A stretch of 46,349 nt of DNA, counting the filler, from Catajapyx aquilonaris (taxonomy: Eukaryota): NCBI GenBank assembly GCA_000934665.2. It is 2 parts of 2 records of this genome, joined end to end, with 100 filler letters (N's around TTAATTAATTAA, not from the genome) between each part and the next. Parts side by side here need not be neighbours in the genome. Positions count along the whole stretch, not along the records: positions 1 to 23,162 come from JYFJ02005743.1; 1 more part is not named here. The stretch is one strand, 5' to 3'. This document shows, piece after piece, positions 866 to 43,252 of this stretch. A program made the position numbers and the translations under genes. Below the pieces are notes generated by a model that saw only the letters and a list, made by a program, of their open reading frames with translations, was not told where the DNA came from and ran no database searches. How positions within the stretch are numbered: position 1 is the stretch's first letter; the number at the start of each line of letters is the position of its first letter.

Positions 866-1124
866 CAGGGACGGAGAAAAAATTGATATTTGCACCCCCA
901 GCTCAATAAGAAACGATCAAGAGTTGGCAGCCTTCCCGGGGCAAGTGAGACAATCATAAGTAAATATCCGGATGGAACCAGCCAACTTCCTCTTATGCAT
1001 AGCCTATTACCACCGAGTCGTGCGATTTACCGATAAGGTCAGCCAGGGGTCAGCCCTCACCGATCTAGCCTTTTCCTGCAGAGGATGCAGGCCGCGTCTC
1101 GCGCAATCAGAATCAGCTCCGAGG

Positions 1125-3366
1125 ATGAAGTGTTCGACGCGGGTTTTAATCCTTTTCCTGGTGCTGATGGTTTGTGGCCAGACCTGTGCTTCGTCGTCCA
1201 AAGTATACTGGTCAGAGCCGACTCCCAGCAGCCCCGGTAGAGAAGATGACCAGCAGCAGCAGGTATCCAGCGCTTCAGACCTCTTTCTGGTGGACCAGGA
1301 CACGCTGAAGGTCGTCATCGAGTCTGTTCTGAAGTCCCAGATAGGGGTCTTTGTTAGCGCCATAGATGACCGCCTGGGCTACGCAAGTAAGCAGTCTTTT
1401 GCTCCTAATCATAATGTTGCTGTGTGCTCCCATGCTCATGCAGAAACTGTGAAAAGTTTGTCTGGTTGCTCATATTTGCAGCGGAACTAGTAGGGAACAA
1501 CGAGGCTAGGATGGGTCAATTACGGACTGATCTAATGAAGCACGTGGATGACACGGCTGCATCGCTGCCGCAGAAAACTCAGGAAATTATTAGCGACTCG
1601 TTAACGGTACGTATACAGCTGGTGACAATCTGTGGATCCCGTTGTGATAATGGTGTTTCAGACCGTGGTCTAAAGGTTAAGCGGGTTGGATGAGACGCTC
1701 ACAAAGGAAATGGCATCCATTCGGAGCGAGGTGGGCAAAGTAGGTGGTCAGTTGACCAGTCTGGAGGGCAGGGTTCAACAGGTCAGCAGCCAGGTGGCAA
1801 GGGTCGAGCAGAACCTGTCGCAGAAAATACGGGACGGATTTGCGACCAACACTGACGAATCTTTCAAGAAAGTCGCGCAAGAATCTGCCAACAGGTAAAC
1901 GAAGACTCAATGGGGAAGTAGTGTACACATAATTATTTCAGTTCATGAACACCATGTTTTCAGGGTCATAACTAGTTGTGAGACGGGCCAAAGGGAATTA
2001 TCCAGACTCCTTGGTTCGGTTGTAACTGACCTGAACATTGTGAAGGTGAGTCCTGTGGCTACTGTATTGTTCGATAACAAAAACAGTTGTAAACTCCAGT
2101 ATTCCGGCGCTTAATCCGATTTAAGAACTATGCTTATATGGCTATATGTACGGGTAGGGGTGTTCAAGTCATTCCCGGACTTTATTTTTTAACAACTCAT
2201 ACACAAGTGACACAGGTGTCAAACTTGTACCACACCTTCCTTCAACTGTCTTGTATGTTCAGTCACGGGCCAGTCTCCGTAAACAGTAATGTGTGAGAGA
2301 GAAAAAAGATGGCGTCGGATAGTGTCAGCGCAGTAGTGGGACAGCGCGTTATCGTTAAGTTTCTTGTAGCGGAAGGCATCAAAACATCGGACATTGTCAC
2401 CAGACTAAGGAGACAGTATGGGGAGGATACCCTGAGCAGATCGGTGGTGTACGAGTGGGCTGCACGATACAAAGGCAGCCGCAAAAGTGTGCTCGATGAT
2501 CCGGGACATGGTTGGTCGGTGCCGAGTGTGGTGACGCCAGCGAACATCAAGCGTGTGGAGGGTTTAGTGCTCAGTAACCGTCGCGTTAGCTGTTCATGGA
2601 CTTGTGTAGATGACAGGAATCAGTTGTGGCAGTGTTGAGACTATTCTGCATGAACACCTTCTCGTCTCTAAGGTGTCTGCAAGGCATTATTCTACTGCAG
2701 GACAATGCCCGCCCCCACACAGCCCATATTACCATGAACAAAATTCGCACACTCAGTTGGACCACTATTCCTCACCTGCCATACAGCCCAGACCTCGCCC
2801 CCAGCGATTTCCACCTTTTTGGGCCTTTAAAAGAGCATTTTGTCATCGAGACGAATGAGGCAGTGCAAGAAGCTGTCCTGGCGTGGCTGAGGAGGGGGGA
2901 ACTCTCATTCTATGCTGCTGGGATACAAGCCCTTATACATCAGCGGGGAAAATGTTGTGCTGTTGTTGGGGACTATGTCGAGAAATGACCAAGGTTTGAC
3001 ACCTGTGTCACTTGTCTGTGATTTGTTAAAAAATAAAGTCCGGGAATGACTTGAACACCCTCTATATAGAGCCAACATTGAAAGGCTGAACTTGTTTCCA
3101 TCACTTTAGGGCTCCGAGGATAGGATCAGATCGGAGTTGCAAATAGCTTCAAGTGATGTGAAGTCGGCAGCGAACGAATCACACAATACTCTTGGCAAAA
3201 AGTTGAACCAGATACTTGACCAGATATATGAGGAATGCCACGCAAAAGATCCATTCGTTGATTTTACAGGTGAGTGCACTTCACATTTCTAGCCTGCTGT
3301 ATTCTGTAGGCTACAAGTAATAAATGTATAAATAAATGTTTTCAGCCAGCACTTCCGACGACTCTT
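1125..3366 (+). pseudogene. Pseudogene of secreted coiled-coil C-type lectin (paralogue of 13217-16124)
   Basis: Exons 1125-1386, 1482-1606, 1662-1894, 1964-2045, 3110-3269, 3346-~3366, all GT-AG. Signal peptide MKCSTRVLILFLVLMVCGQTCA. In-frame TAA at 1671-1673 where the paralogue has GAA. Homology stops ~20 nt into the first lectin-domain exon; the domain is replaced by repeats and homology resumes at ~5650-5660. It also lacks the paralogue's exons 2-4 and ~100 bp of proximal upstream sequence. Confidence 0.88.
2151..3062 (+). mobile_element. Internally deleted mariner (DD34D-type) transposon in lectin intron
   Basis: ~70-bp TIRs (GGGTGTTCAAGTCATTCCCGGACTTTATTTTTTAACAA...), flanking TA. Transposase HTH region QRVIVKFL..TLSRSVVYEWAARYK and C-terminal LQDNARPH, PYSPDLAPSDFHLF; the WVP linker and first catalytic Asp region are missing. 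The empty site is visible in the paralogous intron at ~15041-15060. Confidence 0.93.
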
Positions 3367-3461
3367 ATGAGTCTTATGCGAGTACAGTGGATATAGCGAT
3401 GGTTAGGAGCACCCGGGGCGGATCTAAAATTTGTCGCCCCCACAATTACAACAGAGCAATG

Positions 3462-3575
<114 letters not shown>

Positions 3576-4034
3576 TTGTGGGTAATGCTTTCACCCCTTC
3601 CGGGGTATATAGCGTGGACCTTTATTGTATTTTATGATGTTAAGTACATGGTGCCTTTTTAATGAAAGCCCGGGCCTACGGGCAGGGTGACAGGAGGGGA
3701 TGTGCCAGCGTGCAGTGCAATGTCGTAGCTGTGGTCATTTTGTGAACTCCCCCGGGTGGTTTAGTCTATTGGAAATACCACCCGAGACGAAGCCAGAGAT
3801 GACCCAGAACTCTGCACGAGATGAAGGTGGTGTCCCCGGGCTGGGATTATTACGCCATAACCTGGCAACAACAGAACCGTTGTTGACTATCCGGCCGTCT
3901 CCTAGGAGACAAACGTCTCCAGACAGCCAGCACGACCTCTCCTGCGCGTCACCATGCGGGAAAAACGGGAAGTTGGAGGCTGATGGCGGGGAGACTAATT
4001 TTATATCTTGCCCATCGGCAGGCATGACTATACA

Positions 4035-4738
4035 TATCCTCTTCAATTTCGTGGACATCTGTACACTGTTACTGTCATTCTACTTTTTTTTTCTTGTCCT
4101 TTTACATGCGTGACTGCATTGCTGTGCTAGTATATACGTTTACCCGACACAAATCACAGGAAGTGGTCACCATGATATGCGCGAGGCACATAATTATTAT
4201 CCACGCAGCGATGCATGCTGTCGGAATCGCGTCTCAATCAGTGTTGCAACATCCAATTTGTGGATTTTATTACTGTATTAATGTTTTCATGTAAGACTTC
4301 AATAATAATAATAACAATTCTACCTGGCTTGCACCTATAAATCCTCTCCGGGCTTGCAAGCTCAGGCTATCTCGGTGGCCACATATTTTTGTAAATGACA
4401 AGGGATGGAATTTTCCTCCCACTGATAGCTACTGCTAACTTATTAGTACCAGTGTTGTCACGAATTTTCCATTGATTTTTGTCAATTATTTTATTTACCA
4501 GATACCGTATAACACAATTATAGGGTACGAGTCTATAGGAATGCGCCATGAGTGTTATGTGTCCCTGTTATCACAAGCTAACGTGCACTTACTCTGATTA
4601 TTCTGTGTTGGGTTTGGGTAACATAATATGCTAGCACAGCCACGATTGTATATAGTCATGCATGTAAAAGGACAAGAAAAGGAACAGGCGGAGGAAAAAT
4701 GATCGTACCAGTACATGTCCACGCAATTGAAGAGAATA
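4035..4738. mobile_element. Degenerate non-autonomous TIR element (unclassified)
   Basis: Imperfect ~80-bp inverted arms 4035-4115 (TATCCTCTTCAATTTCGTGGACAT...CTTGTCCTTTTACATGC) and 4654-4738. Contains a half copy (4401-4455) of the hairpin repeat at 12115. Confidence 0.65.
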
Positions 4739-4750
4739 AAGGTGGGTTTA

Positions 4751-5316
4751 AGGTGGGTTTACATGTGAGCGAAATGATCAGCGAAATGCATCGCGGCGAT
4801 GCATTTCGACCGTGAATTGTAGCGGTTCTGACGTCATGACTCAAGCGATCGCCACGGCATGCCAACAGCATCGCCACAGCATGCCAACAGCATCGCCGGC
4901 GCAAAGGACTATCGGAAGGAGACAAAAGACGATCGGGTTGTTTATGGCTCGAATTTTGGAATGGCGAAGAGACTCCCTCGGCCTGTATCGCGAATATACT
5001 CGGCTTCTGTGGTTTTGGTGGAACAAGGGACCCTTGGGAGTGGTGGTGAGTAGACTTCTTCCCTCCTGACGCCATGTTGGAAATCGAACGAAAACAGGCG
5101 GGTGCCTTTCTGTCACCACACGCCGTCACAGTACAGCCACCCGAATACGCCACAAGTGAGCGACGATGTCGTCGCCATCTCCTTGAGCGATGTCATCGCC
5201 GAGGCCCTCCCTTCTTAAACGCGATTGCTACTTTCGGCCCAAATCACTGCTTTCGTTAGGATTTCATCGCTAGCGATGCAAATCGCTGATCATTTCGCTC
5301 ACATGTAAACCCAGCT
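4751..5316. mobile_element. PIF/Harbinger-like MITE
   Basis: TIR AG(G/C)TGGGTTTACATGTGAGCGAAATGATCAGCGA at both ends, TTA on both flanks (4748-4750, 5317-5319), internal CATCGC repeats, no coding capacity. Confidence 0.8.
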
Positions 5317-6784
5317 TTAATGTGTGCATTTAAGCTAGGACGCTGATGATGGTGAAGCAGGAGATAAATGCAGTTTGCCATATAAGATGCAAAAAGTTAT
5401 AACAAAAATGGAAAATATTTTCAAGTTCTCTAAAAGTGGTGCAAGTGTCATATTTATTGAGGAAACACCCTGTATACCGAGACTGAGCTGTTGAATGAAG
5501 TTAACCCCTTGAGCCCCAGCCGCCTAGAATCTATCATAGGCGCTGAGAACTCGACAGCCAGGTACCAGCTAAACACGCCACCGCCTTTAGTTTTCCGCTT
5601 GCTCGTGCGCTGAAGATACGAACAAGATATTTTACAAATAATAACATCTGTACATCTCTCATAACTACAACAAGCCGACTGTTAGTGGCTGTTGTGATAA
5701 TTATAACCAAATAAGCGATTTTTGTATGAGTGAACTGTACACAAACGTGTGAGGGGTAAATAAACAAGGCCGGGAAATCGTTAAAACCTGTACCATTTTT
5801 TTCTTATTTATACTCTTCATGTCCAGCAGTCGTTCATTTTACCCATTTTTACTCTTTCTTGCTCAAAAACATGAAGAATGTAAATGGGTATTGTCAGATT
5901 ATGCGTAAAAAATATAAGATCACAGGATAGGGGGGAGTGAATCGTGGGAAAAGGAGAGATTTATCGTGAAGAAAATTATAGCCAATTTTAATCATTGCTT
6001 TCTTGTGTAATTGTGGATCATATTCACCTGCCAAACACGATGTTTCTTTTTTTTCCACATGTGCTACCTACCATCCCGACGAGGATGGGATCAATAAACG
6101 AGGCATGAATATTTGATAAAGTGCGCCCGGCATGGCACAGGCCCACGTGGTCATCCCGACCATGCTTCCTGGGATGAATCGCAATCATTTTCCGAAGGAA
6201 AAAATATTAATGGGTGTAAGATAACTGGAAGATGCGGTCTATTTCTATATAAGTAAAATAGTCTACCACGCAAGCAGTCAGAAGTCGGAAGTCGGAAGTC
6301 GGAAGCCTCGGATTCCATGCCGACACACAAAGTTGCCTGGTATATGACAGTAATATACTAAAAGGAGGGCATCTGTTCTTTTATGACGCATACGATGCAT
6401 TAATATTCCATGTACAAATAATATTCAGGCTTCTAGTTCTCTAGGAATTGATAAGTATGGGCTAGAAAATTGCATCAAAGAGCAGGTTAGCTGCCATCAT
6501 TACCGCCTTTATTACTTCAATTTTAGTGACATATGACAGTGATAGTGGCATGTGAGTGGCACAGCTTCGGGGGAGGGGTGGACCCACTTTGCCCACTTTG
6601 TCAAAATAAAATAAAAAGTTCGCGATATGTCAATTGTCGCCTTCCTGGGGTCTCACCTTACAACTAGGAGGAGCGGAGGCCTTGTCAGACATCAAGGACG
6701 TCGATTTTAAATCTTGGTTACACTAGAAGGCTGGGTAAATGGCCGGAAGTGAATTAATTCCTGCCAATTCGTTCTCAGAAAAGT

Positions 6785-6822
6785 TATAAAAAGGTCTGGT
6801 TGAAACAAGGACAGGACTAGTT
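6785..6822 (+). promoter_or_regulatory. Candidate TATA box and initiator-like site for the IR gene
   Basis: TATAAAA at 6785-6791 and TAGTT at 6818-6822, just upstream of GCCATGG (ATG 6827). Position-based inference only. Confidence 0.35.
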
Positions 6823-6826
6823 CGCC

Positions 6827-8848
6827 ATGGGTCTTCACTCGTTGTCATCAGTGCTCGTCTCTCTCCTTCTTCTGGTGGTGGCTGTGGATGGGGAGGTGAC
6901 CCTTGACCTTCGAGCATTAGAGGACAGCGAGTTGTTTCGTGTGACTGAGTTCGTCCATTTGGTCAGCCGGATGTACCCTTCTTGCCTTTTGGTGCCTGCC
7001 ACGGACCAAGGAAGAAGGTTCAACGGGCCTGAACTATCCGGGTTCATCAGGAGGATACACCGGGTGGGGATGACCCCAGTGCTGCCCGTCACCACCACCA
7101 CCGTGACCCGGCAGAAGAGGGGGTCACACCAGGTCAACTCAGGTCAGTTCGAGTACTGGTTCTCTTGGTTGCACAGACCTGGTGCGGTGGAGCACAAGTG
7201 CGCGGTGTACCTGCTCTTGCTCTTCGGGTCACCATCATCATCCGACCACCACCATGACCCGAGGTCACTGGTGGAGCAGGTGGCCAGACTGGTCTCCATC
7301 CAGACGGGAAGGGACAAGTTCGTGGTGTGGGTCAGCGAGGGGGGAGGGAGGAGGCTGGAGGAGGTCATGCTGCACGGGGTCACGGAGAGGTTCCTCTTCC
7401 TGGCGGGGGTGGGCACCTCCTCAGGGGTCCAGGGAGGTCATCCAGGGATGGCCAGGCTGCTCTCCAACTGCCACTTTTGCAAGGGGGGTCATCCCGGGGT
7501 GGTCACGAGGGGATGGTTCGACCCCGGAAGAGGACAAGTGACTCCGTCCGGACTGGAGATATTTCCGGATTATTCCCGAAATTTGCACAACAAGTTTCTC
7601 AACGGATCATTCTTGGTGGACCTGAGCAAAAACGAGCTGCAATTCTTCCTGGAAAACCATTTGCCCATGTTTTCAGAGATAATGGACTTCCTGCCCATCA
7701 GCCAGTCCATGAATTTCGACTGGGTCATTCAATCTCCTGGGTTCGAAGACGGGGTGGTACAGGAGGTACCACTGCCAGACGGCAACTACACCGGAGTAAC
7801 AGGAGCCATCCTCAGACGGAAGGGGGTTTTTGGATTAGCAATGCTTAAAGATCGCATTTCCCTGGTGGTCGACATCAATTTTCCCCATGGGTTTGCCATC
7901 ATCACGTTCGTAACCAGGGCCCCTCGAGTGAGCTACACCTGGGACGCGATGCTCCGACCGTACACTCCGGACATGTGGGCGATGGTGATGGTCTCCGTAG
8001 TCTTTGGCAGCGCAGTCCTCGCCCTCCTCTTGAAGTGGAGTCCCCTCCCCCCCTTCCCTGGCCGCCCCTGGTCCTTCCCCCGCCTCCTCCTGTACTCCCT
8101 GAGGTACCTCTCCTCCACCCTGATCGAAGAGAACCCGAACCTGGTCCCCTCCACCCAACCACCCCGAATATTCATCTCCTTCTGGTGGGCCTTCTCCCTG
8201 GTCATCATCTGTGGGTACGAGGCCCTCTACTTCGGCTTCCTGGCCTCTCCCTTGATGGAGGACCTCCCGGAGACATACAGGGAGCACCGGGAATGGCCCA
8301 AGTGGAGTTGGGGCACGATCGCTTTCATGAAGCCCTATCTCGGCGGTGCTCTTCTGAGCCTGGATTACTTTTCATCTGCGGCCAGGGGCATAATTGACCA
8401 CGTGGACCTCAACACGTGTATGTTGGAATCCATCAACTCCGACCACTGCTGCATCGGTACGCGCGATTTCCTGATAGCAGGAAGCTACCAGTTTGCGGAC
8501 AAGGCCGGCAATCTGCAGACAAAATTTGCGAAAGAGAACGACGTGGTAATATACGGTGGTATCCTGACCGAGAAGCACAGCCTAATCTCTCCGATCATAT
8601 CCAGGATGGGGAAGTATGTCAGAGAGTCAGGCTTGCACGAGATGTTCCGTAGGTCCTTCGAGTTTGCCTGTCTGGCCATGGGAATAGGTGATGCCCGGAA
8701 GAAGGACCTCCTCCTCAAGAGGCTGATGGCCCTCAACGTCACCCAGATGAGCGGAGCCTTTTACTTTCTGTCTGCCTTTACTTGGGGACTGAGTGTTTTG
8801 GTTTTCTTTGCAGAACTTTTGACATGCAGAAAAAGTGTTTTATTTTAA
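6827..8848 (+). CDS. Divergent ionotropic receptor (IR, variant iGluR chemoreceptor), intronless, 673 aa
   Basis: Signal peptide; S1 motif PDGNYTGVTGAILRR; pre-M1 TFVTRAP...AMLRPYTPDMW; M1; pore region; M3 RIFISFWWAFSLVIICGY; S2 ending VRESGLHE; M4 LNVTQMSGAFYFL...SVLVFFAE. Size and single-exon layout are typical of divergent IRs. Confidence 0.93.
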   Translation: MGLHSLSSVLVSLLLLVVAVDGEVTLDLRALEDSELFRVTEFVHLVSRMYPSCLLVPATDQGRRFNGPELSGFIRRIHRVGMTPVLPVTTTTVTRQKRGSHQVNSGQFEYWFSWLHRPGAVEHKCAVYLLLLFGSPSSSDHHHDPRSLVEQVARLVSIQTGRDKFVVWVSEGGGRRLEEVMLHGVTERFLFLAGVGTSSGVQGGHPGMARLLSNCHFCKGGHPGVVTRGWFDPGRGQVTPSGLEIFPDYSRNLHNKFLNGSFLVDLSKNELQFFLENHLPMFSEIMDFLPISQSMNFDWVIQSPGFEDGVVQEVPLPDGNYTGVTGAILRRKGVFGLAMLKDRISLVVDINFPHGFAIITFVTRAPRVSYTWDAMLRPYTPDMWAMVMVSVVFGSAVLALLLKWSPLPPFPGRPWSFPRLLLYSLRYLSSTLIEENPNLVPSTQPPRIFISFWWAFSLVIICGYEALYFGFLASPLMEDLPETYREHREWPKWSWGTIAFMKPYLGGALLSLDYFSSAARGIIDHVDLNTCMLESINSDHCCIGTRDFLIAGSYQFADKAGNLQTKFAKENDVVIYGGILTEKHSLISPIISRMGKYVRESGLHEMFRRSFEFACLAMGIGDARKKDLLLKRLMALNVTQMSGAFYFLSAFTWGLSVLVFFAELLTCRKSVLF

Positions 8849-9267
8849 TAATTCTCCCAATGTGACAGGTGACAACAATCTGTAAGAAATAGTGACACAA
8901 GAGTTACACTTGTGTCCGCCTAGTCAAGTGTGGAAAGCTTTGAGGCCAAGGATCAACAATAAATTATGTGTTAAATAGTAAATATCAAGTACAAACATCA
9001 CTCTTTTTTGCCATAGTTTGTAGCTGGAAGTTTAACCTAGTTCAAGCTATTCAACTGGCGGACCTCCACGATATACCCCCAAACGAGGGGGGGGGGGGNN
9101 NNNNGGGGGGGGGGGGGGATTGTGCCAGCGCGTTTTTTTGGGACAACGACGCCACGCACCCCGCTTGCAGCAGGCGTAAACTAGCGAAATTAGGCATATT
9201 CCTTTACATTGATAAATGTACAAAGGTGACAATCACTAAGAGAATTCGCTATTTGTTGCTATAGTAA

Positions 9268-9268
9268 T

Positions 9269-9335
<67 letters not shown>
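9268..9335. repeat. (TAAG)n microsatellite
   Basis: Perfect tetranucleotide run. Confidence 0.95.
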
Positions 9336-9336
<1 letters not shown>

Positions 9337-10144
9337 GTAGATTTGTTTATTCCCATTTGGAGCCCTAGGGCCCCGTGTATAGGAAGGAGTCGTTACATAG
9401 ATAATTTAATATCGACCCTCGTACCCTATAGCTTTATAGCACAAAACCTCATGCATTTTCGTTGGGTCCAAAGCCTTGTTCAACTGGTGCGTGGTCCATG
9501 TGGATCATTCCCTGTCAATTCCTGGTCAATTCACCTAGTCCCCAGACCCTTGGGTTGTCAGATCATGACGAAATCCGGCTAGTCGTTTTGGTTACGTCCC
9601 AGAAGAATACCATTTGAGCGGTTTTGCGATGTACCCCCCCCCCTACCCGGAGATATGCCCACTGAAAAAATGCATTTTCCGGCCTTTACCCGCCTTTTCG
9701 GAAAATAGTGATCTCAATGGGATATAATTATCTCGTGAACCAATTGATACACAGACGTCTTAGACCACTCTCTTTGAAGGGATTCGAGAGCCTTATATCT
9801 ACCTGAACCATAAAGATACGGAATTTGACTTTTTTTTGAAACTTTTGTCTCAATTTGAAAATATAATATTTTTTTTGAAAATTCACCTACCAATTTAAAA
9901 ATACGATTTTTAAATATGTTACAGCTGAGACTTTTTCCTTGACATGTAAAAATATGCAGGAGGCAATTTTCCATTTTAGGAAGAAAAATGCATCTGAAGG
10001 AACCACTGCTCAGCGGGGGCATGCAATGCACCCTAATTGACGCGAATCGGTCCCTGAAGGCTCCATGAATGGTGCTCTCCAAATAGACAGCTGTGTCATG
10101 GGACGACTCTGAGAGTTCCTAAGGGGAAATACATCACTATATTT

Positions 10145-10146
<2 letters not shown>

Positions 10147-10187
<41 letters not shown>
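10147..10187. repeat. (GA)n microsatellite
   Basis: Dinucleotide run. Confidence 0.95.
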
Positions 10188-10189
<2 letters not shown>

Positions 10190-10453
10190 GGATTTCTCTG
10201 TGACGCCCTGAGGAATGCAAAAAGCCCATGTTGTCTAATTTGCAGAACTGTACTGAACTGAAGCCAATATTATAATGACATATATTAACATTAACTTAAA
10301 TGTTTACAATAACTACGTCGTACAGATTATATGCAGATTGGGAAGGGCCAGTTAGGGCCTTAAGTGCACTGGAGAATGCGAAACCAGATTTATTTCAATG
10401 CCAGTTACCGTACTATACATTTGCAAAGATCTGTCTGATCATAATATTATATC

Positions 10454-10693
10454 GGGGGAGGCGTGGTGACCGAGATGGTCACTAACGTCTCGGCTTGAAC
10501 TGTGCGGAAGGCAAGGCGGAAGGTTCCTGGTTCGATCCTCGGGATTTCCCTTTCGCCTGCGTCAGTGGGTCCCTGGCCAGCACCTAAGAAGGCGTCTTGG
10601 CAACCTAAGCCTTATTCTGGGGGACTGCACATGACCCTTTTCAGACATTGAACCTGCACCCTATAAATCCCTATAATCCTTACCCATATCCTT
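10454..10693 (+). mobile_element. tRNA-derived SINE
   Basis: A-box-like GTGGTGACCGAGATGG and B-box GGTTCGATCC, followed by a non-tRNA body and an ATCCY-rich end. Confidence 0.6.
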
Positions 10694-11332
10694 TCATCCC
10701 TGCACGGTGTTTATTGAAGAGTGAAAATGATAAAGGGGGCAAGTGCCAAATTTTTGAAGCTGAGAAAAATCGATCGAGGTTTCCGATTATCAGGGTTAAT
10801 GAATGCACAGGTGTCGCCAGGATAATAATCGGAAACCACAGATAATTAAAAAAAATCGTCGTAGACACCGTAAAAATGAGATATTCACAGGTTTTAATGT
10901 ACTATTGTATGCGGATAGTGTATGCTGGTTTAACTAAGGTTTAATCAAAATAATCAAACGTACCATATATTTTTATTTATTCTAGAAAAAGGGTGTTATA
11001 TTTCTTTGTTCCCTAGACATATTGACATTTTTTCGAGCCTTAATTTTTAATCGAATATTTACTTTCATCACATTTCTAACAACAACAGAAATGATTATAA
11101 TAACCAAAATAATTACGTATTTACATTATGTACTCTACACTATTACATGTAAAAAAAAGCTGCCCATTTTACTCGCGTATACAATGTGTACCCAATTCAA
11201 CGTTTTTCTTTTAAAAAATTTCGCAACGGTTTCGCACTTTATATCACATAGAATAAGAGGTGTTGAGATATGAAAGTTGTTTTGTATTGCTAGCAATACC
11301 GCACTTTATAGCGGAAGTTCTAAGACCCAATG

Positions 11333-11623
11333 CAATAATAAATAATAATTCATACCCCGTTATCAGCCACCGGCTCTTTACGGGGGAAGTTTGTTTTGCC
11401 TGGAACTCTTTCTCTTTGCTTTTCATTTTTACTGTGCTCTTCGGGATAGGATAGGGACGGAAGGAAGCGGCTGTGGCCTATTTATTATACGGAAACAACT
11501 CCGGAATTCTCCTGGAAGGACCGTGGGAAACCACGGAAAACCACGGTCAGAGTTGCCGGCCCCGGGATTCGATCCCAGGACCTCCCGATTCGGACACCAT
11601 ATCCCCTCCTCCAAACTGCTTCG
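11333..11623 (-). mobile_element. tRNA-derived SINE (family A), 5'-truncated
   Basis: B-box GGATCGAATCC; body GGTTTTCCGTGGTTTCCC...AGGCCACAGCCGCTTCCTTCC shared with 43179-43536; (TTA)n tail; 16-bp TSD GTTCTAAGACCCAATG at 11317-11332 and 11624-11639. Confidence 0.88.
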
Positions 11624-12114
11624 GTTCTAAGACCCAATGTATTGCATGCAATACAGTCCTTTTACTCAGGAATGGTGCAGAATTTTAAAACATGTGTAGG
11701 ACGGTTATTTGTTCCCAGTGCGACATTACACCTCGACACAAAATCTGGAACATGTATGTTGAAGAGAATCAGGAGCATGTGTGTTGAATAGAACTCTTTC
11801 GGGTCTGAGGAGGCGATGTTTGGAAATTTCCTGCTATCAAATAAGCCATCTGGGGCATTTGGAGGTTTCGCATATTAGTATTGGCCTTGGGCCATTGAAG
11901 TTTTTTAGTACATAATCTCAAAATTTTTATTTTTGGCAGTTACCCCCTGTACCATTTATTGCCAGTTTTGTAATAGGCGTATTATTATATTATCCTGACT
12001 ATAACATATTATGCTGTCGAGTGTATCGATACATAGACTATTTGAATGCCGCTAAGGCACCAATCATCAAATGTTTGACCAGTGGAATTACTATCTAATT
12101 CATGTAGGAAAGGG

Positions 12115-12225
12115 GTGGAATTTTCTTCCCACTGACAGTTACTGCTAACTTATCAGTGCCAGTGTTCGCAATGGTACTGCTAACTGCTAAGTTAGTAGTA
12201 ACTATCAGTGAGACGAAAATTCCAC
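12115..12225. mobile_element. Short hairpin MITE
   Basis: ~38-bp inverted arms GTGGAATTTTC..C.CACTGA.AGTTACT.CTAACTTA; a partial copy lies at ~4401-4455. Confidence 0.7.
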
Positions 12226-13216
12226 ACAAGGTTTTTAAGACTATATAAAAATGCAATGCTCAAGTGACGTTCATTCTATGATAACAATCCCAACAACTCT
12301 TTGCGACGCTCCATTAGCCCAACTGCCCATCTTTGAAGGGCAAGAACAAATAAGTCAAAATTTCAATTCCTTATTGGCAAGTGTTATCATCATTATTAGC
12401 AGCAGAAATCTGAAGACAACGTGTAATTGCTAGCTTCTGTTCGCAGTTAGAAAAAAAAGTTCTAATATCCAGTATCATAATGTAGATCATGTGATGAACT
12501 TCATCGAGTGTATAACCAGCAAGGATAATAAATTAGGGCCACGTTACTGATTAAAGTGATTATCATGCACCTTGTATTTTATGCGTGCCCATTATCTCTG
12601 TAATGAGGCTGATGAGAGAATAAATAATCTCTCTTTATGAAATGTCATGAGGGTCACGTTGTACAAGTTGACTCATTGTAAAACGATCTGCAGAATTATA
12701 ACATTTTGTAACCAGCACGGAGGCGTACTGCACGTGTATACATCTTCTACACATCTTTCTGTAAGAGTGAGAGAAAAAAAAGCAGCTTTGACATGACCTT
12801 TACCATGACCTTTACGGTATGAGTTAATATTGTATTTGGCTCTTACACATTTTTATAGTTTGGGTATATACTATAATGTTGGAATCATATCAGAAAATTA
12901 CTTGCGCCTCGTTGCAACTGCATTCGGCCAAGAAACAGGAAATGAATCATACGTATAGAAACCTCTCTCACTTTGTAATCATAAGTGAATATCCGGATTG
13001 ATCCAGCCGACTTCCTCTTTTGCATGTATAACTCGTGCCATTTACCGATAAGGCCAGCGGTCACCGATCTAGCCTCTTTTCCTTCAAAGGAATCATCGCC
13101 TGGTTATCGCAATTCAAGCGAATTCGCGAAGGTCACGAGCAGTATCTGACCTCCTCTATAGGTTGGTATGTGCATAAAGTTCAGGCCACGTCTAGCAATC
13201 AGAATCAGCTACGAGG

Positions 13217-16124
13217 ATGAAGTGTTGGACGCGAGTTATAACCCTCCTCCTGGTGCTGATTTGTGGCCAGACCTGTGCTTCGTCGTCCAAAATCTACTGG
13301 TCAAAGCCGACTCCCAGCAGCTCCGCCGGAGGAGAAGATGACCAGCAGCAGGTATCAAGCGCTTCAGACCTCTTTCTTGTGAACCAGGACACGCTGACGG
13401 TCGCCATCAAGTCTATTCTGGTGCCCCAGATTCGGGTCGCTGTTAGCGCCATAGAGGACCGCCTGGGCTACTCAAGTAAGAAGTCTCCTGCTCATAATCA
13501 TAATGCTGTGTCCTCATGCACCACTTCTATACTTTGTAGCAAAACAGTTGTCAGACAACTTCGAGGACACTTCTGATCAGCTGAAAAAAGATGTGAAAGA
13601 GTTGCTGGAGCAGTACGTCAAGGCCTGCGCGTCCTCCGTGTCATCAGCTCTTGAGGCTGGAGAAGTCAATCGAATCGACCAGATCAACGCTGTGTTACAG
13701 GTCTGGCCATTTCACTGCACCGAAAGACAACACTGATTTTGTTGCAATCACATTTTGGAATTATTTCCATATTATGTGGTGTTGGAATTTTGCATGTACT
13801 GTATCCCTGCTTGTTTATTATTATTATTTTGATCATGCTGCGAAGTCTGGTGTTAAAATTAATCAATATGTGGTTGCAGACCATTATCAGGCAAGTAAAT
13901 GATGGCGTGGAGAACACGATTCCTGGCCGAAAGCCTGACATGAATGCCGACACGGTCAGTTTGGCAGTCCTGGATCACAAGGTCACCTTGTTGAGCAAGC
14001 AGCTGACCGCCCTGCAGCAGACCCTGCCCCAACTGACCGAAGAAGGCATTTCCTCGATGATCAGGGAAGCCCTCGAGGAGATATCCGACACACATTCCGC
14101 CAGGTACGACGAATATCCTCTCTCTTCGAGCGTCGTGACTGTCGACGAGATGGTGTTTCCGAATGTAAATAATAACTGCGATTCCTTCCCAGCGTGGCGA
14201 CCAATTGCTGCGGACAGGGCCAGCAGCGAGTGTTGGCAGCACTCGACTCTCTGGCGAGTGACGTCGCAGCTGTGGACTCGAAAATCTTCCAGACCAGTGA
14301 GAGACTACATATAGATTCACTTTCAGAAACTGTCAACAATATGAATGGTTGCGTTCCTGTTTGCAGCGCGACTGGTTGATAGGAACAACGAGGCTAGGAT
14401 GGGCCAATTACGGACTGATCTAATGAAACACGTGGATGACACGGCTGCATCGCTGGCGCAGAAAACTCAGGAAATTATTAGCGACTCATTGACGGTACGT
14501 ACTGTACGTACAGGTGGTGACAATCTGTCTATCCCGTTGTGATAATGGTGTTTCAGACCGTGGTCGAAAGGCTAAACGGGTTGGATGAGACGATGAGAAA
14601 GGAAATGGCATCCATTCGGAGCGAGGTGGTTAAAGTAGGTGGTCAGTTGACCAGTGTGGAGGGCAGGGTTCAACAGGTCAGCAGCCAGGTGGCAAGGGTC
14701 GAGCAGAACCTGTCGCAGAAAATACGGGACGGATTTGCGACCAACCCTGACGAATCTTTCACGAAAGTCATGCAAGAATCTGCCAACAGGTAAACAAACA
14801 CCCAATGGGGAAGTGTATGTAACACATAATTGTTTCAGTTCATGAAGACAAGCCATGTTTTCAGGGTCATAACTAGTTGTGAGACGGGCCAAAGGGAATT
14901 ATCCAGACTCCTTGGTTCGGTTGTAACTGATCTGAACATTGTTAAGGTGAGTCCAGTGGCTACTTATTGTTCGATAACGAAAATAGTTTTAAACGCAAGT
15001 ATTCCGGCGCTTAATCCGATTAAAAAACTATACTTATATGGCTATCTATACGTAGAGCCAACATTGGTCAATTTTTTTTTGAAAGGCTGAACTTGTTTCC
15101 ATCATTTAGGGCTCCGAGGATAGGATCAGATCGGAGTTGCAAATAGCTTCAAGTGATGTGAAGTCGGCAGCGAACGAATCACACAATACTCTTGGCAAAA
15201 AGTTGGACCAGATATATGAGGAATGCCACGCAATAGATCCATTCGGTGATTTTAATGGTGGGGGCACTTCACATTTCTAGCCTGCTATATGCTATATTTT
15301 GTGCAAATAATCATAAATAAATGTTTTGCAGCGTCGGCCACTTGCGACGACCCTTTCATCAAAGTGGGGTCGAAATGCTATCACTTCAGCGGGTCAATGA
15401 CAAAGACCTGGTTCAAAGCGTCGCTGCACTGCAGGTCACAAGACGCAACCCTGCTGACCATCGAGACAGAAGAGGAAGGAAGAGCCATTCGACAGCACCT
15501 CATCAATTGTAAATCAGATAGTTATCAACCTCTATACCGGGAGTATCAAAAGTGAGCTCACAATGCAATCTGGGGAGGAGTCTCGGACAAACTGCGAAAA
15601 TACGAAGTGCGAAGCATAATTTTGTTCTCGACATATTGATGAGCACAGAATAAAAGATGTGCGGAGCGAATTTCGGCTTGGAAAAAGATCCGATTGACCA
15701 TCAGATGAGCTCACTTTTGTTATATTAGATTCCACTTACGTTAGATCTTAAGACGCGCTCCAGACGCGGTCGTTGACTCTACTGAGACCGACTCAGTCGA
15801 GTCGAGCCAACAAGTAATCACGTCTCGAGCGCGTCTATACTGCATCCATCCATCATGTCTTGACCGATGTATTTCTTTGATTGAACAGCAAAAGTGCAGG
15901 CCGTGAGCTTCATAGGTGCTTGCGACGTGGGCAGTCATGGAGAGTGGTTCTGGGAGTCGAGCAAGAGGAGGCTCCAGTACACGGACTGGAGCCCTGGAGA
16001 ACCAGACGGGTTCAGGAAGGGTCTGAACCAGCACTGCGCCCAGATGAAGGAGGCCCTCATCTACAGGTGGAGCGACGCAGAGTGCTACCAGCCAGCCAGC
16101 TTCATCTGCGAAAAGAATCTATAA
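13217..16124 (+). CDS. Secreted C-type lectin with long coiled-coil stalk, 10 exons, ~583 aa
   Basis: Exons 13217-13475, 13540-13700, 13880-14103, 14193-14296, 14367-14494, 14557-14789, 14865-14946, 15110-15257, 15332-15508, 15889-16124. All GT-AG, phases compatible, 1752 nt open. Signal peptide, heptad-rich stalk, C-terminal CTLD (CDDPF..KCYHF..TWFKASLHC..LLTIE..FIG..YTDWSPGEPD..HC..WSDAEC..FICEK). Confidence 0.9.
15547..15836. mobile_element. Two small MITE-like inverted-repeat elements in the last lectin intron
   Basis: 14-bp perfect TIR CAAAAGTGAGCTCA (15547-15719) and a 16-bp TIR AGACGCGCTC(C/G)AGACG (15751-15836). Confidence 0.55.
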
Positions 16125-16712
16125 CTATAGTTGACTGTCAGTGGCTGTTGTGATCATTATAACCAAATAAGTGATTTTTGTACGAGTGAATTGGACACAA
16201 ACGTGTGAGGGGTCAATAAAAACAAGGGCGAGAACTCATGAAAACCACCACCTTTTTTCCCCATACAACTCCTTTTTCTCCATCTATATCCAGTCATCCT
16301 TCTTGCTCAAGAATATGACAGGAAAGATGTTGTCAGCTGCTTCAAATTAATAATGTAAGTTATAAGATCGCAGGATAGGGATGTATAGGAATCATGGAAA
16401 CGGATAGATTTATCATAAGGAAAAATCTGACAAATTTTTATCAATGCTTTCCTGCGTAATTGTGGATCATATTATATGACAAAATGATTATTTAACACTT
16501 CATGTTGGAATCTTTTCGCCGGGCTTACGGCCCTCTTTTTTCCCCAGTGCTGCGCCCCATGCCGACGAGTATGGGATCAATAAAAATTGCGTGAATATTT
16601 TGATAAAGTGCGCGCGGCATGGCACATGCCCACGTGGCCATCTCGACCATGCTTCCTGGGATGAACCGCCATCACCTTCAGAAGGTAAAAATTATTTTTG
16701 AATTTAAGATAG

Positions 16713-17504
16713 CTTCCCTGGCCGCCCCTGGTCCTTCCCCCGCCTCCTCCTGTACTCCCTGAGGTACCTCTCCTCCACCCTGATCGAAGAGAACCCGAAC
16801 CTGGTCCCCTCCACCCAACCACCCCGAATATTCATCTCCTTCTGGTGGGCCTTCTCCCTGGTCATCATCTGTGGGTACGAGGCCCTCTACTTCGGCTTCC
16901 TGGCCTCTCCCTTGATGGAGGACCTCCCGGAGACATTCAGGGAGCACCGGGAATGGCCCAAGTGGACGTGGGGCGTGGTCGCTTTCATGAAGCCCTATTT
17001 CGGCAGTGCTCTCCAGGGCCTGGAGTACTTCTCTTCAGTGGCGAGTAACCTGACAGATCACGTGGACCTCAACACGTGCATACTCGAAGCCATCAACTCC
17101 GACCACTGCTGCATCGGTGCGCACGACTTCCTGATAGCAGGAAGCTACCAGTTTGCGGACAAGGCCGGAAATTTGCAGACTAAATTATCGAAAAAGAACG
17201 ATATATTAATGGTAGGATCTTATGTGACCGAGAAGCACAGCCTGATCTCTCTGATCATGAGCCGGATGCTCAAGTACGTCAGAGAATCCGGTATCCACAA
17301 TAAGTTCCATAGATCCTTCGAGTATATGCCTGCCTGACCATGGGAATCACAGATGCACGAAAGAAGGACCTTCTCTTCAAGAGGCTGATGGCCCTTAACT
17401 TAATCCAGATGAGTAGTGCCTTTTACCTCCTTTTCGTTGTAACTTGGGGGATGAGCTTTTTGATTTTCTTTGCAGAACTTTTGACACGCAGAAAAATTGA
17501 ATAA
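16713..17504 (+). pseudogene. 5'-truncated, frameshifted IR pseudogene (paralogue of 6827-8848)
   Basis: Aligns to 8053-8848. The equivalent of ~6226-8052 (promoter, N-terminus, S1, M1) is absent. A +2 insertion at ~17323 (GAGTATATGCC vs GAGTTTGCC) gives TGA at 17335-17337; M4 continues in the shifted frame to TAA 17502-17504. Confidence 0.9.
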
Positions 17505-19922
17505 TTTTAGCAGTGACAGATGACTTAAACATGTTAGAAAGAGTAGTGACACATGAGTCAAACACGATTCCTCGCAGTCAAGTGTGAAAATCCGCGGAAT
17601 AAGCTATATTTTTGGACAAGTGAACCTATTGCAACCCGATAATATTGTTGATGTCATTTCACAATATTTCTTGCTGTCAAATCATCATGACTGTGGTAAC
17701 ACTGATACGTAACATGCGAATCCCGCAGCGCTGGGCGCCTGCGAGTTATGCGAAATGGCCGAGTCAGAAAATCAGCTCTCCTGAAAATTGCTTCAATCTC
17801 GATAATTATAGTAGAAGATCACCTCCTCAAATATCGTATAATTATAATACATATTTTTATTTATAACTTTGATATAATTGGCGATAAATTGGGAAAGTAT
17901 AGCATGTATGATTTTCATAACTCCATATAATTGAAATGGCTATTTAAAAATATATTATATCATTCATAACCTTTGTCATGTATAGACATGCTTTCTCGTG
18001 AGAGAGAGTTCACATCATTGTTCCTGTTCTTCATATAGGTGGAAGTAAAACTTATCAAAAAATTAGTCGAGTTAAGAAAATATCAATCGAGGAATTTCAA
18101 CTAAATAATAAAACTATTTAAAAATTTATGCGACATGAATTTTCTCTGCTGAAATTGTGTAACCCTTTGTTTTTTGACTTAAGGACATGAGGTGTATAAT
18201 TAATAAGTCCATTACAATTATAAGTGTATCACAGTATATTACTGTATTGTTTTAAACCTCACTCGCTCTGTTGGTGTTTTTTTTACGTCGCCTTATGCTG
18301 TGGGCCAGGACAACTGATAGTGACTATTCCCGATAGCAGCATGAAACCCTTGTTTACAGGTACCGGCAAGTAATAATTTATTATACTGTATGCCTGTAAA
18401 TATCGGTCCAGTGGCAACAACCGTTTCCAACATGCAGGGTGGCCTGAAAATTTAATTTCCCTCCGTCCCCACCTCTAAAGGAATGATCACTAATTCCTAA
18501 TTATTTTATGGCCTTCGTACTCACTTTGCGTGTAATTCAGCTCATGAAAGTTCGCAGCGTTTCAAACGCCAAATACAGGGGAAAGTTTTGTCTGCAATAT
18601 TAATAAATTACTACGCCTTTTTTGTACGCGTCTTACACAATCTACGTAAAACTACAGGATGGAGTGAATGTTGGCACACAAAAGAAGTAAGAGCGCGGGT
18701 TAATAATGTCGTCACAATCATCGCTACTTGCTGCTCTCTTTGAATATTGCAAGGAAGGGTGCAAAGAAAAAGTATTGGGTCCTCACCGGTTTTTGATGAT
18801 GATCTATGATGGGGTAAAGAGGTCTGTGTGAATGATATTAAGATGTAGGTAGGCACATCCTATTTCACTAGATGGAATAATATACAGAATAAATTACGGT
18901 TTTTAACCCTAATTAAGGTATATAATACCGGTTCATGGAGAGGTTCACTTATATACCTGAATGTACCAGAAATGTGTTTGTTGATTATTATGCATATATC
19001 TTATTGAAGTCAGTGACTTATAAGCGAATGTATAGAATTGGAGGAACTGATGTCTTCTGCACTTGATGCACTCGTTGTGCGATTGATTTGACCCCAGTGA
19101 CCCTTTGTGGCAGAGCAATTGGCAGGATTCCAAGGTCGCAAAAGCCAATGTGATGAACTTTATGGACGGTTGCCCTAATTAAAAAATGTTGCATTATCGA
19201 CACCAACGCGACACCTTGTCTGCTGTGAAGTGTCCTATTTGTCCTGCACATCTATTTTTTCCGTAAATGGCTATATTATAACAGTGATGGATATCTTCGA
19301 ATCTCCTCCGAATGGTGATCTGTGCCTTCTTTATTGGTATTGAGGGTGCGATTTGTAATTAAGGGCAGAAATTGCACAGCATACATGGTGTTTGTTACTA
19401 GTCCAACGGCCGCCAGCGTATTCCTTCTGCCAAAGCAAGTCGAAAATGCAGGGGTGAGAAATGTCGATGGACCAACCGTTAACGAGGTAGACGACTAGAA
19501 ACATTATAGGCGGTGGTTGCCGAAGCTGCATGTGATGATCACTTCTGTGAAAGAGGTGGCAATGCAAATCCCAACAGTCGCGATTTTCACGCTCATGTCC
19601 TGCTCCTTCGGGAACAATATTATTGGCCAATGTTTCTGGTCGTATTAATGGTTGCTCCCTCGACATTTCTCCTCCCTTCAATTTCCACTTATTTTTTTGG
19701 CTCAAGGAATACGCTGCCGGCGGTTGGCTGGACTAGAAAGAAACGCCATAATGCCCGCAATGAAATGGGTACACACACACACGCATACGCCAACATGCAG
19801 CATGTATACGAGCCAAAGGTCAGAGAGTGTTACAAGAGATATCTTATCGCACATTTTCAGCACTTTCTCAGAGGTCACAGGACAAGAGCTCACCGGTTCA
19901 CTGTGCGACATCATTTGGGAAC

Positions 19923-22074: not shown

Positions 22075-22276
22075 TAAGGCAGCTCTGATGCGGAGGACGC
22101 ACGCCTGACCGCAATAATACGTATAATTATTATGTTTGCGAAGCATTTATAAGCATGCATATGACAACACGGTGTGGGTCCAATGAATTATGGAATATGC
22201 CATGAGTGTACCTGGGATAATAAAATATAATTATTAATTACACTGGAAGACCGTCACGATCCTGCCAATTTTGATT

Positions 22277-22528
22277 TAGAGGTGATATTTCCCGTTTAAA
22301 GGTGACCACGGCAGCTCCCATCTCAGCACGTCACCTCTAAACCTGTGTCACCTTAAAATCCTCCTGTCATTGTCCCCTATACATTGACGTCACCTTTATT
22401 GATGCGGAAATTACTTCCTCCTGTCACCTTTATTCAACGAATCCCCTATAATTCCCTACTGCCGCATTACGGATCACCTTTAAAACAACTCTAAAGGGGA
22501 TATTAAAGGTGACCGGACTAAGAGTGTA
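22277..22528. repeat. Cluster of eight TCACCT/AGGTGA motifs, probably subterminal repeats of a CACTA-like MITE
   Basis: Motifs at 22280, 22300, 22331, 22348, 22390, 22424, 22474, 22507 in both orientations; the right end reads CACTCTTA on the minus strand. Confidence 0.5.
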
Positions 22529-23162: not shown

Positions 23163-23262
23163 NNNNNNNNNNNNNNNNNNNNNNNNNNNNNNNNNNNNNN
23201 NNNNNNTTAATTAATTAANNNNNNNNNNNNNNNNNNNNNNNNNNNNNNNNNNNNNNNNNNNN
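23163..23262. other. Artificial assembly spacer (44N + TTAATTAATTAA + 44N)
   Basis: Exactly symmetric 100-nt gap with a 12-mer giving stop codons in all six frames. Confidence 0.95.
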
Positions 23263-24940: not shown

Positions 24941-25460
24941 CTGGCCTGCTGCTGACCACCTCTTCAGACCTCGTCAAGTCTCCCCCTGACACAGAGGAGT
25001 GTAGATATTTGGAAAACATTACGAAAAAGCAGGTATAGGACACCTTTACGTTGCAAAGATCTTCTGGCATTTGCTTGTAAAAAAATTTCTTCTTCAGGTA
25101 CAAATGATTCAAATGATTGGATACACCCTTCTAAACAGCAACTTTGGGAAAGAATGATTTGCCACTTCAGTGATTTTATAATCACAAAATCACACAGGCA
25201 GATTCTCCATTTAGGTACTTTAGTCAGATTATTTGTAACTTATAAATGTCATATTTTATAATCCTAGTAAGTTTATTCTGTATTCACCAATTGTATAAAC
25301 CAGGCCATACATACTATTCCAAACACAGGATCCACAGATTATACAAGGTGAAGGGAAACTCGCGGACAATCGCCAGGTAGACTCACGGTTGTTAGAGTAT
25401 ATCCTTCCTATGGTTGGACCGTCCGGCTAGTGGGCGGTGATTGGTGGAGGGGGAAAACGT

Positions 25461-43175: not shown

Positions 43176-43252
<77 letters not shown>

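What the first reader, a model, noticed from the sequence alone, without database searches (positions are those of the whole stretch)
953..17590. Lectin + ionotropic-receptor cassette duplicated as a unit, with reciprocal gene loss
Seen: two colinear units, each a secreted coiled-coil C-type lectin followed by a divergent IR on the same strand. Unit 1 keeps the IR (673-aa ORF) and loses the lectin (TAA at 1671, CTLD replaced by repeats). Unit 2 keeps the lectin (583 aa) and loses the IR (~1.8-kb 5' deletion, +2 frameshift). One working copy of each remains, in swapped order. Both dead copies show in-frame indels or conservative substitutions, suggesting both pairs worked for a time. Known: divergent IRs and CTLs each expand in tandem arrays in arthropods; I do not know of an interleaved CTL-IR repeating unit. 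Inference (speculative): either hitch-hiking in a segmental duplication, or a linked module in which a secreted glycan-binding protein is co-expressed with a chemoreceptor.
Basis: partly seen in the sequence, partly recalled or inferred. Interest (0 to 1): 0.75.

Follow-up and report, generated by a model that had tools for sequence, protein, structure and literature searches.

The report
Local lectin–receptor duplication, likely hitch-hiking
A secreted sugar-binding-type gene and an unrelated taste/smell-type ion-channel gene were copied together and each lost one copy, most likely an ordinary local accident, while the channel gene's family shows a more interesting habit of keeping two parts nearly identical between copies and letting the ligand-sensing parts drift.

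Summary
The anatomy is confirmed: two colinear lectin+IR units. Unit 1 has a dead lectin (TAA 1671, lectin domain gone) and an open 673-aa IR. Unit 2 has an open 583-aa lectin (all 9 introns spliced in run X5) and an IR killed by a 1.83-kb deletion. The linked-module reading is not supported. At least 23 close IR copies exist in the assembly and only 3 sit beside this lectin; three lectin-less copies carry the IR's upstream DNA without it. 'One working copy of each' also fails: a third, open lectin copy (contigs C7224 and C10936) and many open IRs exist. Best reading: local tandem duplication plus complementary loss in a fast-turnover IR family (hitch-hiking, about 0.85). Side result: the IR family is a gene-conversion mosaic. 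Four-fold synonymous distance is 0.03-0.05 in the N-terminal and pore tracts against 0.21-0.32 in the ligand lobes S1/S2; in a second clade of 19 genes it is 0.005 against 0.56-0.60; GC3 is raised in the tracts. This resembles protocadherin regional conversion. I found no IR report of it in two searches, but the scan noted it before on other DNA of this genome.

The parts
1125..3366 (+). LEC1 pseudogene: exons 1 and 5-8 of the coiled-coil C-type lectin; exons 2-4 deleted in frame; TAA at 1671-1673; lectin-domain exons lost
2158..3060 (+). Mariner-like element in LEC1 intron 7: 67-bp terminal inverted repeats at 95.5%, broken transposase frames. 'Mariner-like' rests on recalled motifs; Pfam gave no hit.
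3367..5676 (.). 2.3 kb of unrelated and repeated DNA, including (ATA)38 and dispersed repeats, where unit 2 has the 0.78-kb lectin-domain region
5677..6826 (+). Lectin 3' flank and IR upstream region. From 5909-6081 onward it is shared with three lectin-less IR copies. TATA-like box at 6785-6792 (inference).
6827..8848 (+). IR1, open single-exon divergent ionotropic receptor, 673 aa
6962..7426 (+). Homogenised N-terminal (ATD-like) tract of IR1, codons 46-200
   Evidence: four-fold p 0.034 among 8 genes, GC3 about 0.81
7940..8260 (+). Homogenised M1-pore-M3 tract of IR1, codons 372-478
   Evidence: four-fold p 0.050 among 20 genes, exact runs up to 414 bases, GC3 about 0.85 (codons 361-480)
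13217..16124 (+). LEC2, open 10-exon gene, 583 aa: signal-like N terminus, long heptad-rich helical region, one C-type lectin domain with EPD and WSD motifs. Exons 13217-13475, 13540-13700, 13880-14103, 14193-14296, 14367-14494, 14557-14789, 14865-14946, 15110-15257, 15332-15508, 15889-16124.
16133..16711 (+). Unit-2 copy of the spacer, cut off by the deletion; junction at 16711/16713 with one extra base and no microhomology
16713..17510 (+). IR2 pseudogene (codons 410 to end); first 224 bases identical to IR1; 2-base insertion at about 17323
19923..22074 (+). LEC3, distant C-type lectin gene (QPN/WND motifs, 38% identity to LEC2 in the last exon), no IR paired; exon structure not fully built

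Best explanation
Shown: a segment holding one lectin gene followed by one single-exon IR was duplicated head to tail, and each unit later lost one gene, so the surviving order is IR then lectin. Shown: a third copy of the IR-to-lectin junction exists on C7224, whose IR has an IR2-like S2 lobe and an IR1-like M4 and 3' flank. Inferred: that hybrid is a product of unequal crossing-over between misaligned units, which is also the likely source of the array. Inferred: the two genes are neighbours by chance. An IR from a family with over a thousand candidate copies came to lie behind a lectin gene, the pair was carried along by local duplication, and redundant copies decayed independently. The lectin most likely works as a secreted oligomeric pattern-recognition or adhesion protein, and the IR as a tuning chemoreceptor subunit that needs a co-receptor (both inferred from family knowledge). 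Shown at sequence level: the IR clade evolves by region-limited gene conversion that keeps the N-terminal and pore tracts alike and leaves S1, S2 and M4 divergent.
For: Lectin subfamily in the assembly: two window copies, C7224 (5' half), C10936 (3' half) and a fragment on C3143; the DNA search scored 9 of 9 candidates and the exon-6 search 12 of 12. Close IR copies: at least 23, of which 3 are beside this lectin. 0 of 6 other copies with at least 5 kb of upstream DNA read, and 0 of 11 with at least 7 kb downstream, have it. The 62 contigs with IR hits and the 73 with lectin-domain hits share only the window's contig (C7224 is in neither list). C952, C4036 and C9903 share the IR upstream region from 5909-6081 onward but no lectin exon. 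Nearest S2 relatives of IR1 (C4787, 10%) and of IR2 (C8814 6%, C13474 7%, C952 8%, beside C7224 7%) are mostly copies without this lectin seen, while IR1 vs IR2 is 21%. Rough chance level: about 3 of 73 lectin loci would have an IR within 5 kb either side under random placement of 1,293 candidates.
Against: 14 of the 21 other close IR copies run off a contig end, so their flanks are only partly seen; the bound comes from the lectin searches, and the assembly is fragmented. The tight arrangement (same strand, about 1.1 kb behind the lectin stop) is expected only about 0.17 times by the same rough model. C952 carries a 450-bp piece of another lectin subfamily 14.7 kb upstream of its IR on the opposite strand, so this IR subclade may have a longer history near lectin genes. 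At least three copies of the junction persisted, and both genes show some purifying selection. No related genome and no tissue data were available.
Confidence: 0.85

Rival explanations
1. Linked functional module: the secreted lectin is a perireceptor partner, co-regulated with the IR, capturing glycans or microbes and presenting a ligand to the receptor.
For: Same strand and 1.1 kb apart; at least three copies of the junction; one intact gene of each kind survives side by side. Shrimp MjCC-CL shows that a coiled-coil lectin can bind a surface receptor, though that receptor is Domeless, not an IR (PMC5645147, abstract).
Against: 20 of at least 23 close IR copies have no such lectin in the DNA seen. 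Each unit broke the pair rather than dying or surviving whole. The IR's upstream region travels without the lectin. LEC2 has EPD/WSD and Gln at the position of the Ca-site Glu of langerin, so sugar binding is itself unproven.
Confidence: 0.06
2. The lectin locus is the cradle of this IR subclade: the IR arose here long ago and copies left it by DNA-mediated duplication, so the adjacency is old but still without function.
For: Lectin-less copies share the spacer to different 5' end points (5909, 6076, 6081, then about 6786), as erosion or variable-length copying from one source would give. C952 also shares IR2's downstream flank to 17665 and at 18630-18870.
Against: The direction cannot be rooted: conversion scrambles the coding sequence and the shared upstream part may simply be a conserved promoter. 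This is a variant of the best explanation, not a different function.
Confidence: 0.35
3. Assembly artefact: units 1 and 2 are haplotypes joined in tandem, or IR pieces are misjoined across identical tracts.
For: Short-read-type fragmentation; identical tracts of 200-400 bases inside the IRs could misphase flank, S1 and S2; C7224 plus C10936 could be a second haplotype of the IR1-LEC2 interval; no laid contig spans the whole stretch.
Against: The units differ by 11% at synonymous sites, 15% plus 27 gaps in the spacer, and by different large deletions and insertions. The IR-to-lectin junction runs through unique DNA and is found a second time on C7224. The IR2 deletion junction has no overlap an assembler could use. 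Neighbouring LEC3 has no second haplotype in the assembly, 5 of 5 candidates scored. My estimate that C7224/C10936 is an allele rather than a third unit is about 0.25.
Confidence: 0.05

Closest known systems
Divergent ionotropic receptors of arthropods (Croset et al. 2010, PMC2924276, passages read) and the large intronless IR expansions of Campodea augens (PMC6938034, passages read)
   Same: Single-exon iGluR-derived channel in a very large, species-specific, pseudogene-rich family. The Campodea paper describes arrays, segmental duplications and individual genes moved around the genome.
   Different: No lectin partner is described in the passages seen. The word 'conversion' occurs 0 times in the main text of the Campodea paper and of the Blattella paper PMC6175461; their supplements were not read.
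Tandem duplication followed by complementary (random) loss, the standard route to swapped gene order (recalled, best known from mitochondrial genomes; no call)
   Same: A-B becomes A-B-A-B and then (a)-B-A-(b), reversing the order of the live genes.
   Different: Nuclear, two unrelated multigene families, with at least one more unit and many outside IR copies, so nothing forces one copy of each to be kept.
Regional gene conversion in clustered protocadherins of fugu (Yu et al. 2007, PMC1852091, passages read) and divergence peaks under conversion (Fawcett and Innan 2011, PMC3924837, passages read)
   Same: Near-100% nucleotide identity limited to part of a large exon, raised GC3 in the tract, tracts that differ between subfamilies, and the presumed specificity domains spared.
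   Different: Here the genes are chemoreceptor channels on many separate contigs with mostly unrelated flanks, and clade A has two separate tracts that bracket S1. Chromosomal linkage is unknown.
Coiled-coil C-type lectin MjCC-CL of kuruma shrimp (PMC5645147, abstract and section list)
   Same: Secreted-type protein with a coiled-coil region and one C-type lectin domain.
   Different: Orthology was not tested; LEC2 has a helical region of about 350 residues and non-canonical EPD/WSD motifs; no function was tested.

Membership tests
Divergent ionotropic receptor | iGluR-type S1/S2 ligand domain and M1-pore-M3, M4 channel | tested here: met
   Profile of 109 sequences hits kainate and delta receptors at E 6.6e-92; model pLDDT 88, Foldseek top hit GluK2 at E 1.4e-21. 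The Pfam Lig_chan score alone, 24.3 bits, is under the 30.8 cut-off.
Divergent ionotropic receptor | Single-exon coding region and lineage-specific expansion with low identity to other species | tested here: met
   One 673-codon frame; 1,293 first-look candidates in the genome, 66 scored; full-length outside relatives 21-32% identical.
Divergent ionotropic receptor | Shortened amino-terminal domain (one lobe) | tested here: inconclusive
   About 200-residue alpha/beta domain in the model; the profile aligns from GluD1 residue 164 onward; the lobe was not superposed separately.
Divergent ionotropic receptor | Expression in chemosensory neurons with a co-receptor; ligand gating | not testable with these tools
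   No tissue data or assay.
C-type lectin | C-type lectin domain with conserved cysteines and WIG-like core | tested here: met
   Pfam Lectin_C 29.9 bits on exon 10 (cut-off 22.6) and E 8e-4 on exon 9; aligns to langerin at E 9e-10.
C-type lectin | Canonical Ca/sugar site (EPN or QPD, following Glu, WND) | tested here: not met
   EPD, Gln and WSD at the aligned positions. It is a lectin-domain protein; sugar binding is unproven.
C-type lectin | Secreted, with coiled-coil neck | tested here: inconclusive
   Only one hydrophobic window (residues 3-21, KD 1.61), no later membrane segment, heptad bias in several 28-residue windows; no dedicated predictor was run.
Functional two-gene cassette | Pairing recurs at independent loci | tested here: not met
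   3 of at least 23 close IR copies, all from one duplicated segment.
Functional two-gene cassette | Congruent gene trees | tested here: inconclusive
   Only three lectin copies; the IR is a conversion mosaic.
Functional two-gene cassette | Co-expression and conservation in related species | not testable with these tools
   No relatives are held for this genome; no tissue-resolved RNA.
Regional gene conversion (protocadherin type) | Synonymous homogenisation limited to part of the gene | tested here: met
   Clade A four-fold p 0.034 and 0.050 vs 0.209 and 0.320; clade C 0.005 vs 0.600 and 0.560, 19 genes; clade B weaker, 0.148 (3 pairs only) and 0.193 vs 0.380 and 0.423.
Regional gene conversion (protocadherin type) | Raised GC3 in the tract | tested here: met
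   Clade A about 0.81 and 0.85 vs 0.60 and 0.70; clade C 0.79 vs 0.38 and 0.45.
Regional gene conversion (protocadherin type) | Tract more alike among paralogues than among orthologues of a sister species | not testable with these tools
   No related genome held.

The most novel reading that the evidence does not exclude
The IR expansion of this animal is built on a constant/variable plan: conversion between dispersed genes keeps a clade-specific N-terminal lobe, and in some clades the pore, fixed as the co-receptor docking surface, while selection shields the S1 and S2 lobes and recombination in the constant tracts re-pairs them into new ligand pockets. Cryo-EM work places the tuning subunit's single ATD lobe against the co-receptor ATD (bioRxiv 10.64898/2026.09.30.755715, passages read), which fits but does not test this.
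Probability: 0.3. Interest if true: 0.65.

Novelty: new member of a known kind. Interest (0 to 1): 0.33.

Why it matters
The lectin-IR pair is a clean nuclear example of duplication with complementary loss and says little about function. The conversion mosaic matters more. It means whole-gene IR trees and ages in this lineage mislead, that short-read assemblies break and may misphase such genes, and that the divergence peaks point to the parts that set ligand specificity, which makes S1/S2 swap experiments on a constant frame straightforward to design.

Tried and rejected
Word-index protein search with IR1 found nothing at E<=0.001; the HMMER search gave 429 distant relatives. The Atlas look-up did not complete. 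Single-sequence folding of IR1 failed, pLDDT 36; the alignment-based model replaced it. No RNA holder was listed. X5 has no cover over the IR2 pore tract (16704-17045); this is a blank and is not used for or against co-expression. Summed contig depth over that tract is about 15-25 times that of the neighbouring unique DNA, but the tool states that depth is no copy number, so it is not counted as evidence. The list of laid pieces was cut (225 not shown), so I cannot say whether one contig bridges the deletion junction. The haplotype search with 17400-22400 was swamped by a MITE (40 of 467 candidates scored) and was redone on LEC3 alone. A search for a fourth IR clade did not complete and was not repeated. 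Positive selection alone was rejected as the cause of the S1/S2 divergence: dN/dS there is 0.37 and 0.29 and synonymous sites diverge too. Retro-copy homogenisation is disfavoured because the tracts are 5' and central, not 3' (inference). The S1-vs-S2 tree conflict (AU p 3e-4 and 4e-10 on 5,000 replicates, fewer than the program advises; Mantel rho 0.31, p 0.03) could partly come from misphasing across identical tracts. No complex prediction was run, since I do not claim binding. Literature: five-term search on C-type lectin plus ionotropic receptor listed 20 of 288 papers, 19 of them without the lectin term; searches on IR plus gene conversion listed 20 of 39 and 6 of 6 papers, none on this pattern by title or abstract start. 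Subscription journals and supplements were not seen.
Full report
Observation. The window's first 23,162 bases are contig C3424 of a 285.6-Mb, 20,583-contig animal assembly. Self-comparison shows five colinear blocks between 952-8936 and 12977-17590 at 71-90% identity. Unit 1 holds a dead lectin (LEC1) and an open IR (IR1, 6827-8848, 673 aa). Unit 2 holds an open lectin (LEC2, ten exons, 583 aa) and a dead IR (IR2, 16713-17510). Contigs of run X5, whose kind is not on record, skip all 9 of 9 predicted LEC2 introns at GT..AG and reach 16248, so they behave as spliced RNA and confirm the model. LEC1 has TAA at 1671, has lost exons 2-4 in frame, carries a 0.9-kb inverted-repeat element in intron 7 and ends about 20 bases into the first lectin-domain exon. 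IR2 lacks 1,829 bases including the start and 409 codons, with a clean junction of one extra base, and has a 2-base insertion near 17323. Contigs lacking those 2 bases are listed in X1-X3, so the frameshift is less secure than the deletion.

What the genes are. IR1 is an iGluR-derived channel: a 109-sequence profile hits kainate and delta receptors at E 6.6e-92, and the alignment-based model (pLDDT 88) matches GluK2 at E 1.4e-21. It is single-exon and its full-length outside relatives are 21-32% identical; the two that carry names are from a springtail and a lobster, so the taxon is not resolved beyond arthropod-like. This fits the divergent IRs of Croset et al. (PMC2924276, passages). LEC2 has a signal-like start, a long heptad-rich region and one C-type lectin domain. 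Against langerin it reads EPD, Gln and WSD at the calcium/sugar site, so glycan binding is not established.

Is the pair a module? The lectin subfamily is small: a DNA search (9 of 9 candidates scored) and an exon-6 protein search (12 of 12) find the two window copies, a 5' half on C7224, a 3' half on C10936 and a fragment on C3143. The IR clade is large: at least 23 copies at about 78-90% amino-acid identity, a lower bound because 66 of 1,293 candidates were scored. Three of the 23 lie beside this lectin: IR1, IR2 and the IR on C7224. None of 6 other copies with at least 5 kb of upstream DNA read, and none of 11 with at least 7 kb downstream, has it. Three lectin-less copies (C952, C4036, C9903) share the IR's upstream region from 5909-6081 onward, that is, from just behind the lectin's 3' end. 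Of 62 contigs with IR hits and 73 with lectin-domain hits, only the window's is in both lists. Against my reading: 14 of the 21 other copies run off a contig end; the close same-strand spacing is expected only about 0.17 times under a rough random model, although about 3 looser adjacencies are; and C952 has a 450-bp piece of another lectin subfamily 14.7 kb from its IR on the opposite strand.

A third unit. C7224 reads IR 3' end, 6 kb of different DNA, lectin exons 1-3; C10936 reads lectin exons 6-10, spacer to the equivalent of 6368 (past the IR2 deletion point), then a repeat. Both lectin halves are open, and X5 holds both the window-type and the C7224-type exon 2 (nine differences at 13590-13668 that match). 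The three lectin copies are about equally far apart (pS 0.10-0.15), except that the lectin-domain exons of C10936 and LEC2 are identical over 136 codons. The C7224 IR is 7% from IR2 in S2 but 99% identical to IR1 in M4 and shares IR1's 3' flank, as an unequal crossover product would be. Whether this is a third tandem unit or another haplotype is open; LEC3 next door has no second haplotype in the assembly, which favours a paralogue (my estimate 0.75). Either way the loss is not a forced one-of-each outcome.

Did the dead copies work? LEC1 vs LEC2 gives pN/pS 0.43 in exons 5-8 (p=0.024), no higher than between two open copies (0.58), but 1.10 in exon 1 and 0.67 overall (p=0.17). IR2 has 9 codons not found in any paralogue and is 4% from its nearest relatives in each half of S2, so it died recently.

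Mechanism. Most likely (0.85): chance neighbourhood, local tandem amplification by unequal exchange, independent decay. The Campodea paper describes the same background for another very large intronless IR family: arrays, segmental duplications, single genes moved about, 37% pseudogenes (PMC6938034, passages). Duplication followed by complementary loss as a route to swapped order is recalled knowledge. The functional module (0.06), the cradle variant and the artefact reading are set out under rivals.

Side result: the IRs are conversion mosaics. The 224 identical bases of IR1 and IR2 are not special to this pair. Across clade A, four-fold synonymous distance is 0.034 in codons 46-200 (8 genes), 0.209 in S1 (20 genes), 0.050 in M1-pore-M3 (20 genes), 0.320 in S2 (22 genes) and 0.407 in M4 (domain limits). 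GC3 is about 0.81 and 0.85 in the two tracts against 0.60 and 0.70 in the lobes. In a second clade, 19 genes on 16 contigs taken from the 40-46% hits, a tract of about 115 codons is nearly invariant (four-fold p 0.005, GC3 0.79) while S1 and S2 are at 0.60 and 0.56 and the pore region is not homogenised (0.41). A third clade of 7 genes shows a weaker version on few pairs; five further genes formed no cluster and were left out. Only 38 of 171 upstream-flank pairs in the second clade align at all. dN/dS in S1 and S2 is 0.37 and 0.29, so recent copying plus positive selection does not explain it. S1 and S2 trees of 19 genes reject each other, though misphasing across identical tracts may contribute. 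The pattern matches regional conversion in fugu protocadherins, including the GC3 rise (PMC1852091, passages), and the divergence-peak model (PMC3924837, passages). I saw it before consulting earlier notes; three notes of this scan report the same kind of pattern on other pieces of this genome. Two literature searches and term counts in two IR-expansion papers showed no report for IRs; supplements and subscription journals were not seen.

Verdict. Observation confirmed; module interpretation not supported; an ordinary duplication-and-loss event. Interest 0.33, of which most comes from the conversion mosaic; class: new member of a known kind.

Noticed in passing
window 6962-7426 and 7940-8260; loci L002-L019, L070-L088: Region-limited homogenisation of IR paralogues in three clades, each with its own tract sequence; clade C keeps about 115 codons nearly invariant across 19 genes.
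   Followed up: yes
window 15332-15508 and 15889-16124 vs L031: The two lectin-domain exons are letter-identical (136 codons) between LEC2 and the C10936 copy, while the intron between them is 90-97% and the spacer about 80%: probably conversion in the lectin too, or allelism.
   Followed up: partly
L034:4160-4566 (C3143): Fragment of the lectin in which a piece resembling intron 2 is fused to the last exon and 3' flank; the same loose end appears in X1 and X2 at 15951.
   Followed up: partly
C952:58925-59375 (L037): 450-bp piece 90% identical to lectins on C10284 and C12239, with no lectin domain found, 14.7 kb upstream of an IR that shares IR2's flanks, on the opposite strand.
   Followed up: partly
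window 19381-19750: About 370-bp element with terminal inverted similarity (MITE-like); 467 first-look candidates in the genome.
   Followed up: no
window 19923-22074: Third C-type lectin gene with QPN/WND motifs and a Thr/Pro-rich linker; single copy.
   Followed up: partly
window 25457-26841: 278-bp inverted repeats at 97% flanking microsatellite-rich DNA.
   Followed up: no
window 27559-27978 (-): Second mariner-like transposase remnant (motif recalled, no family search).
   Followed up: no
window about 35700-46000 (-): Multi-exon gene with WD40 repeats; resembles WDR81 from recall, not tested. It lies beyond the N gaps at 23163-23262, off contig C3424.
   Followed up: no
window 32068-32118: About 10 copies of CTAAC, the reverse strand of TTAGG, the common arthropod telomere repeat (recalled), at an internal site.
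   Followed up: no
window 34039-34471 vs 34657-35100; 35224-35501 vs 40668-40941: Two pairs of inverted repeats at about 80% identity, probably decayed transposon copies.
   Followed up: no
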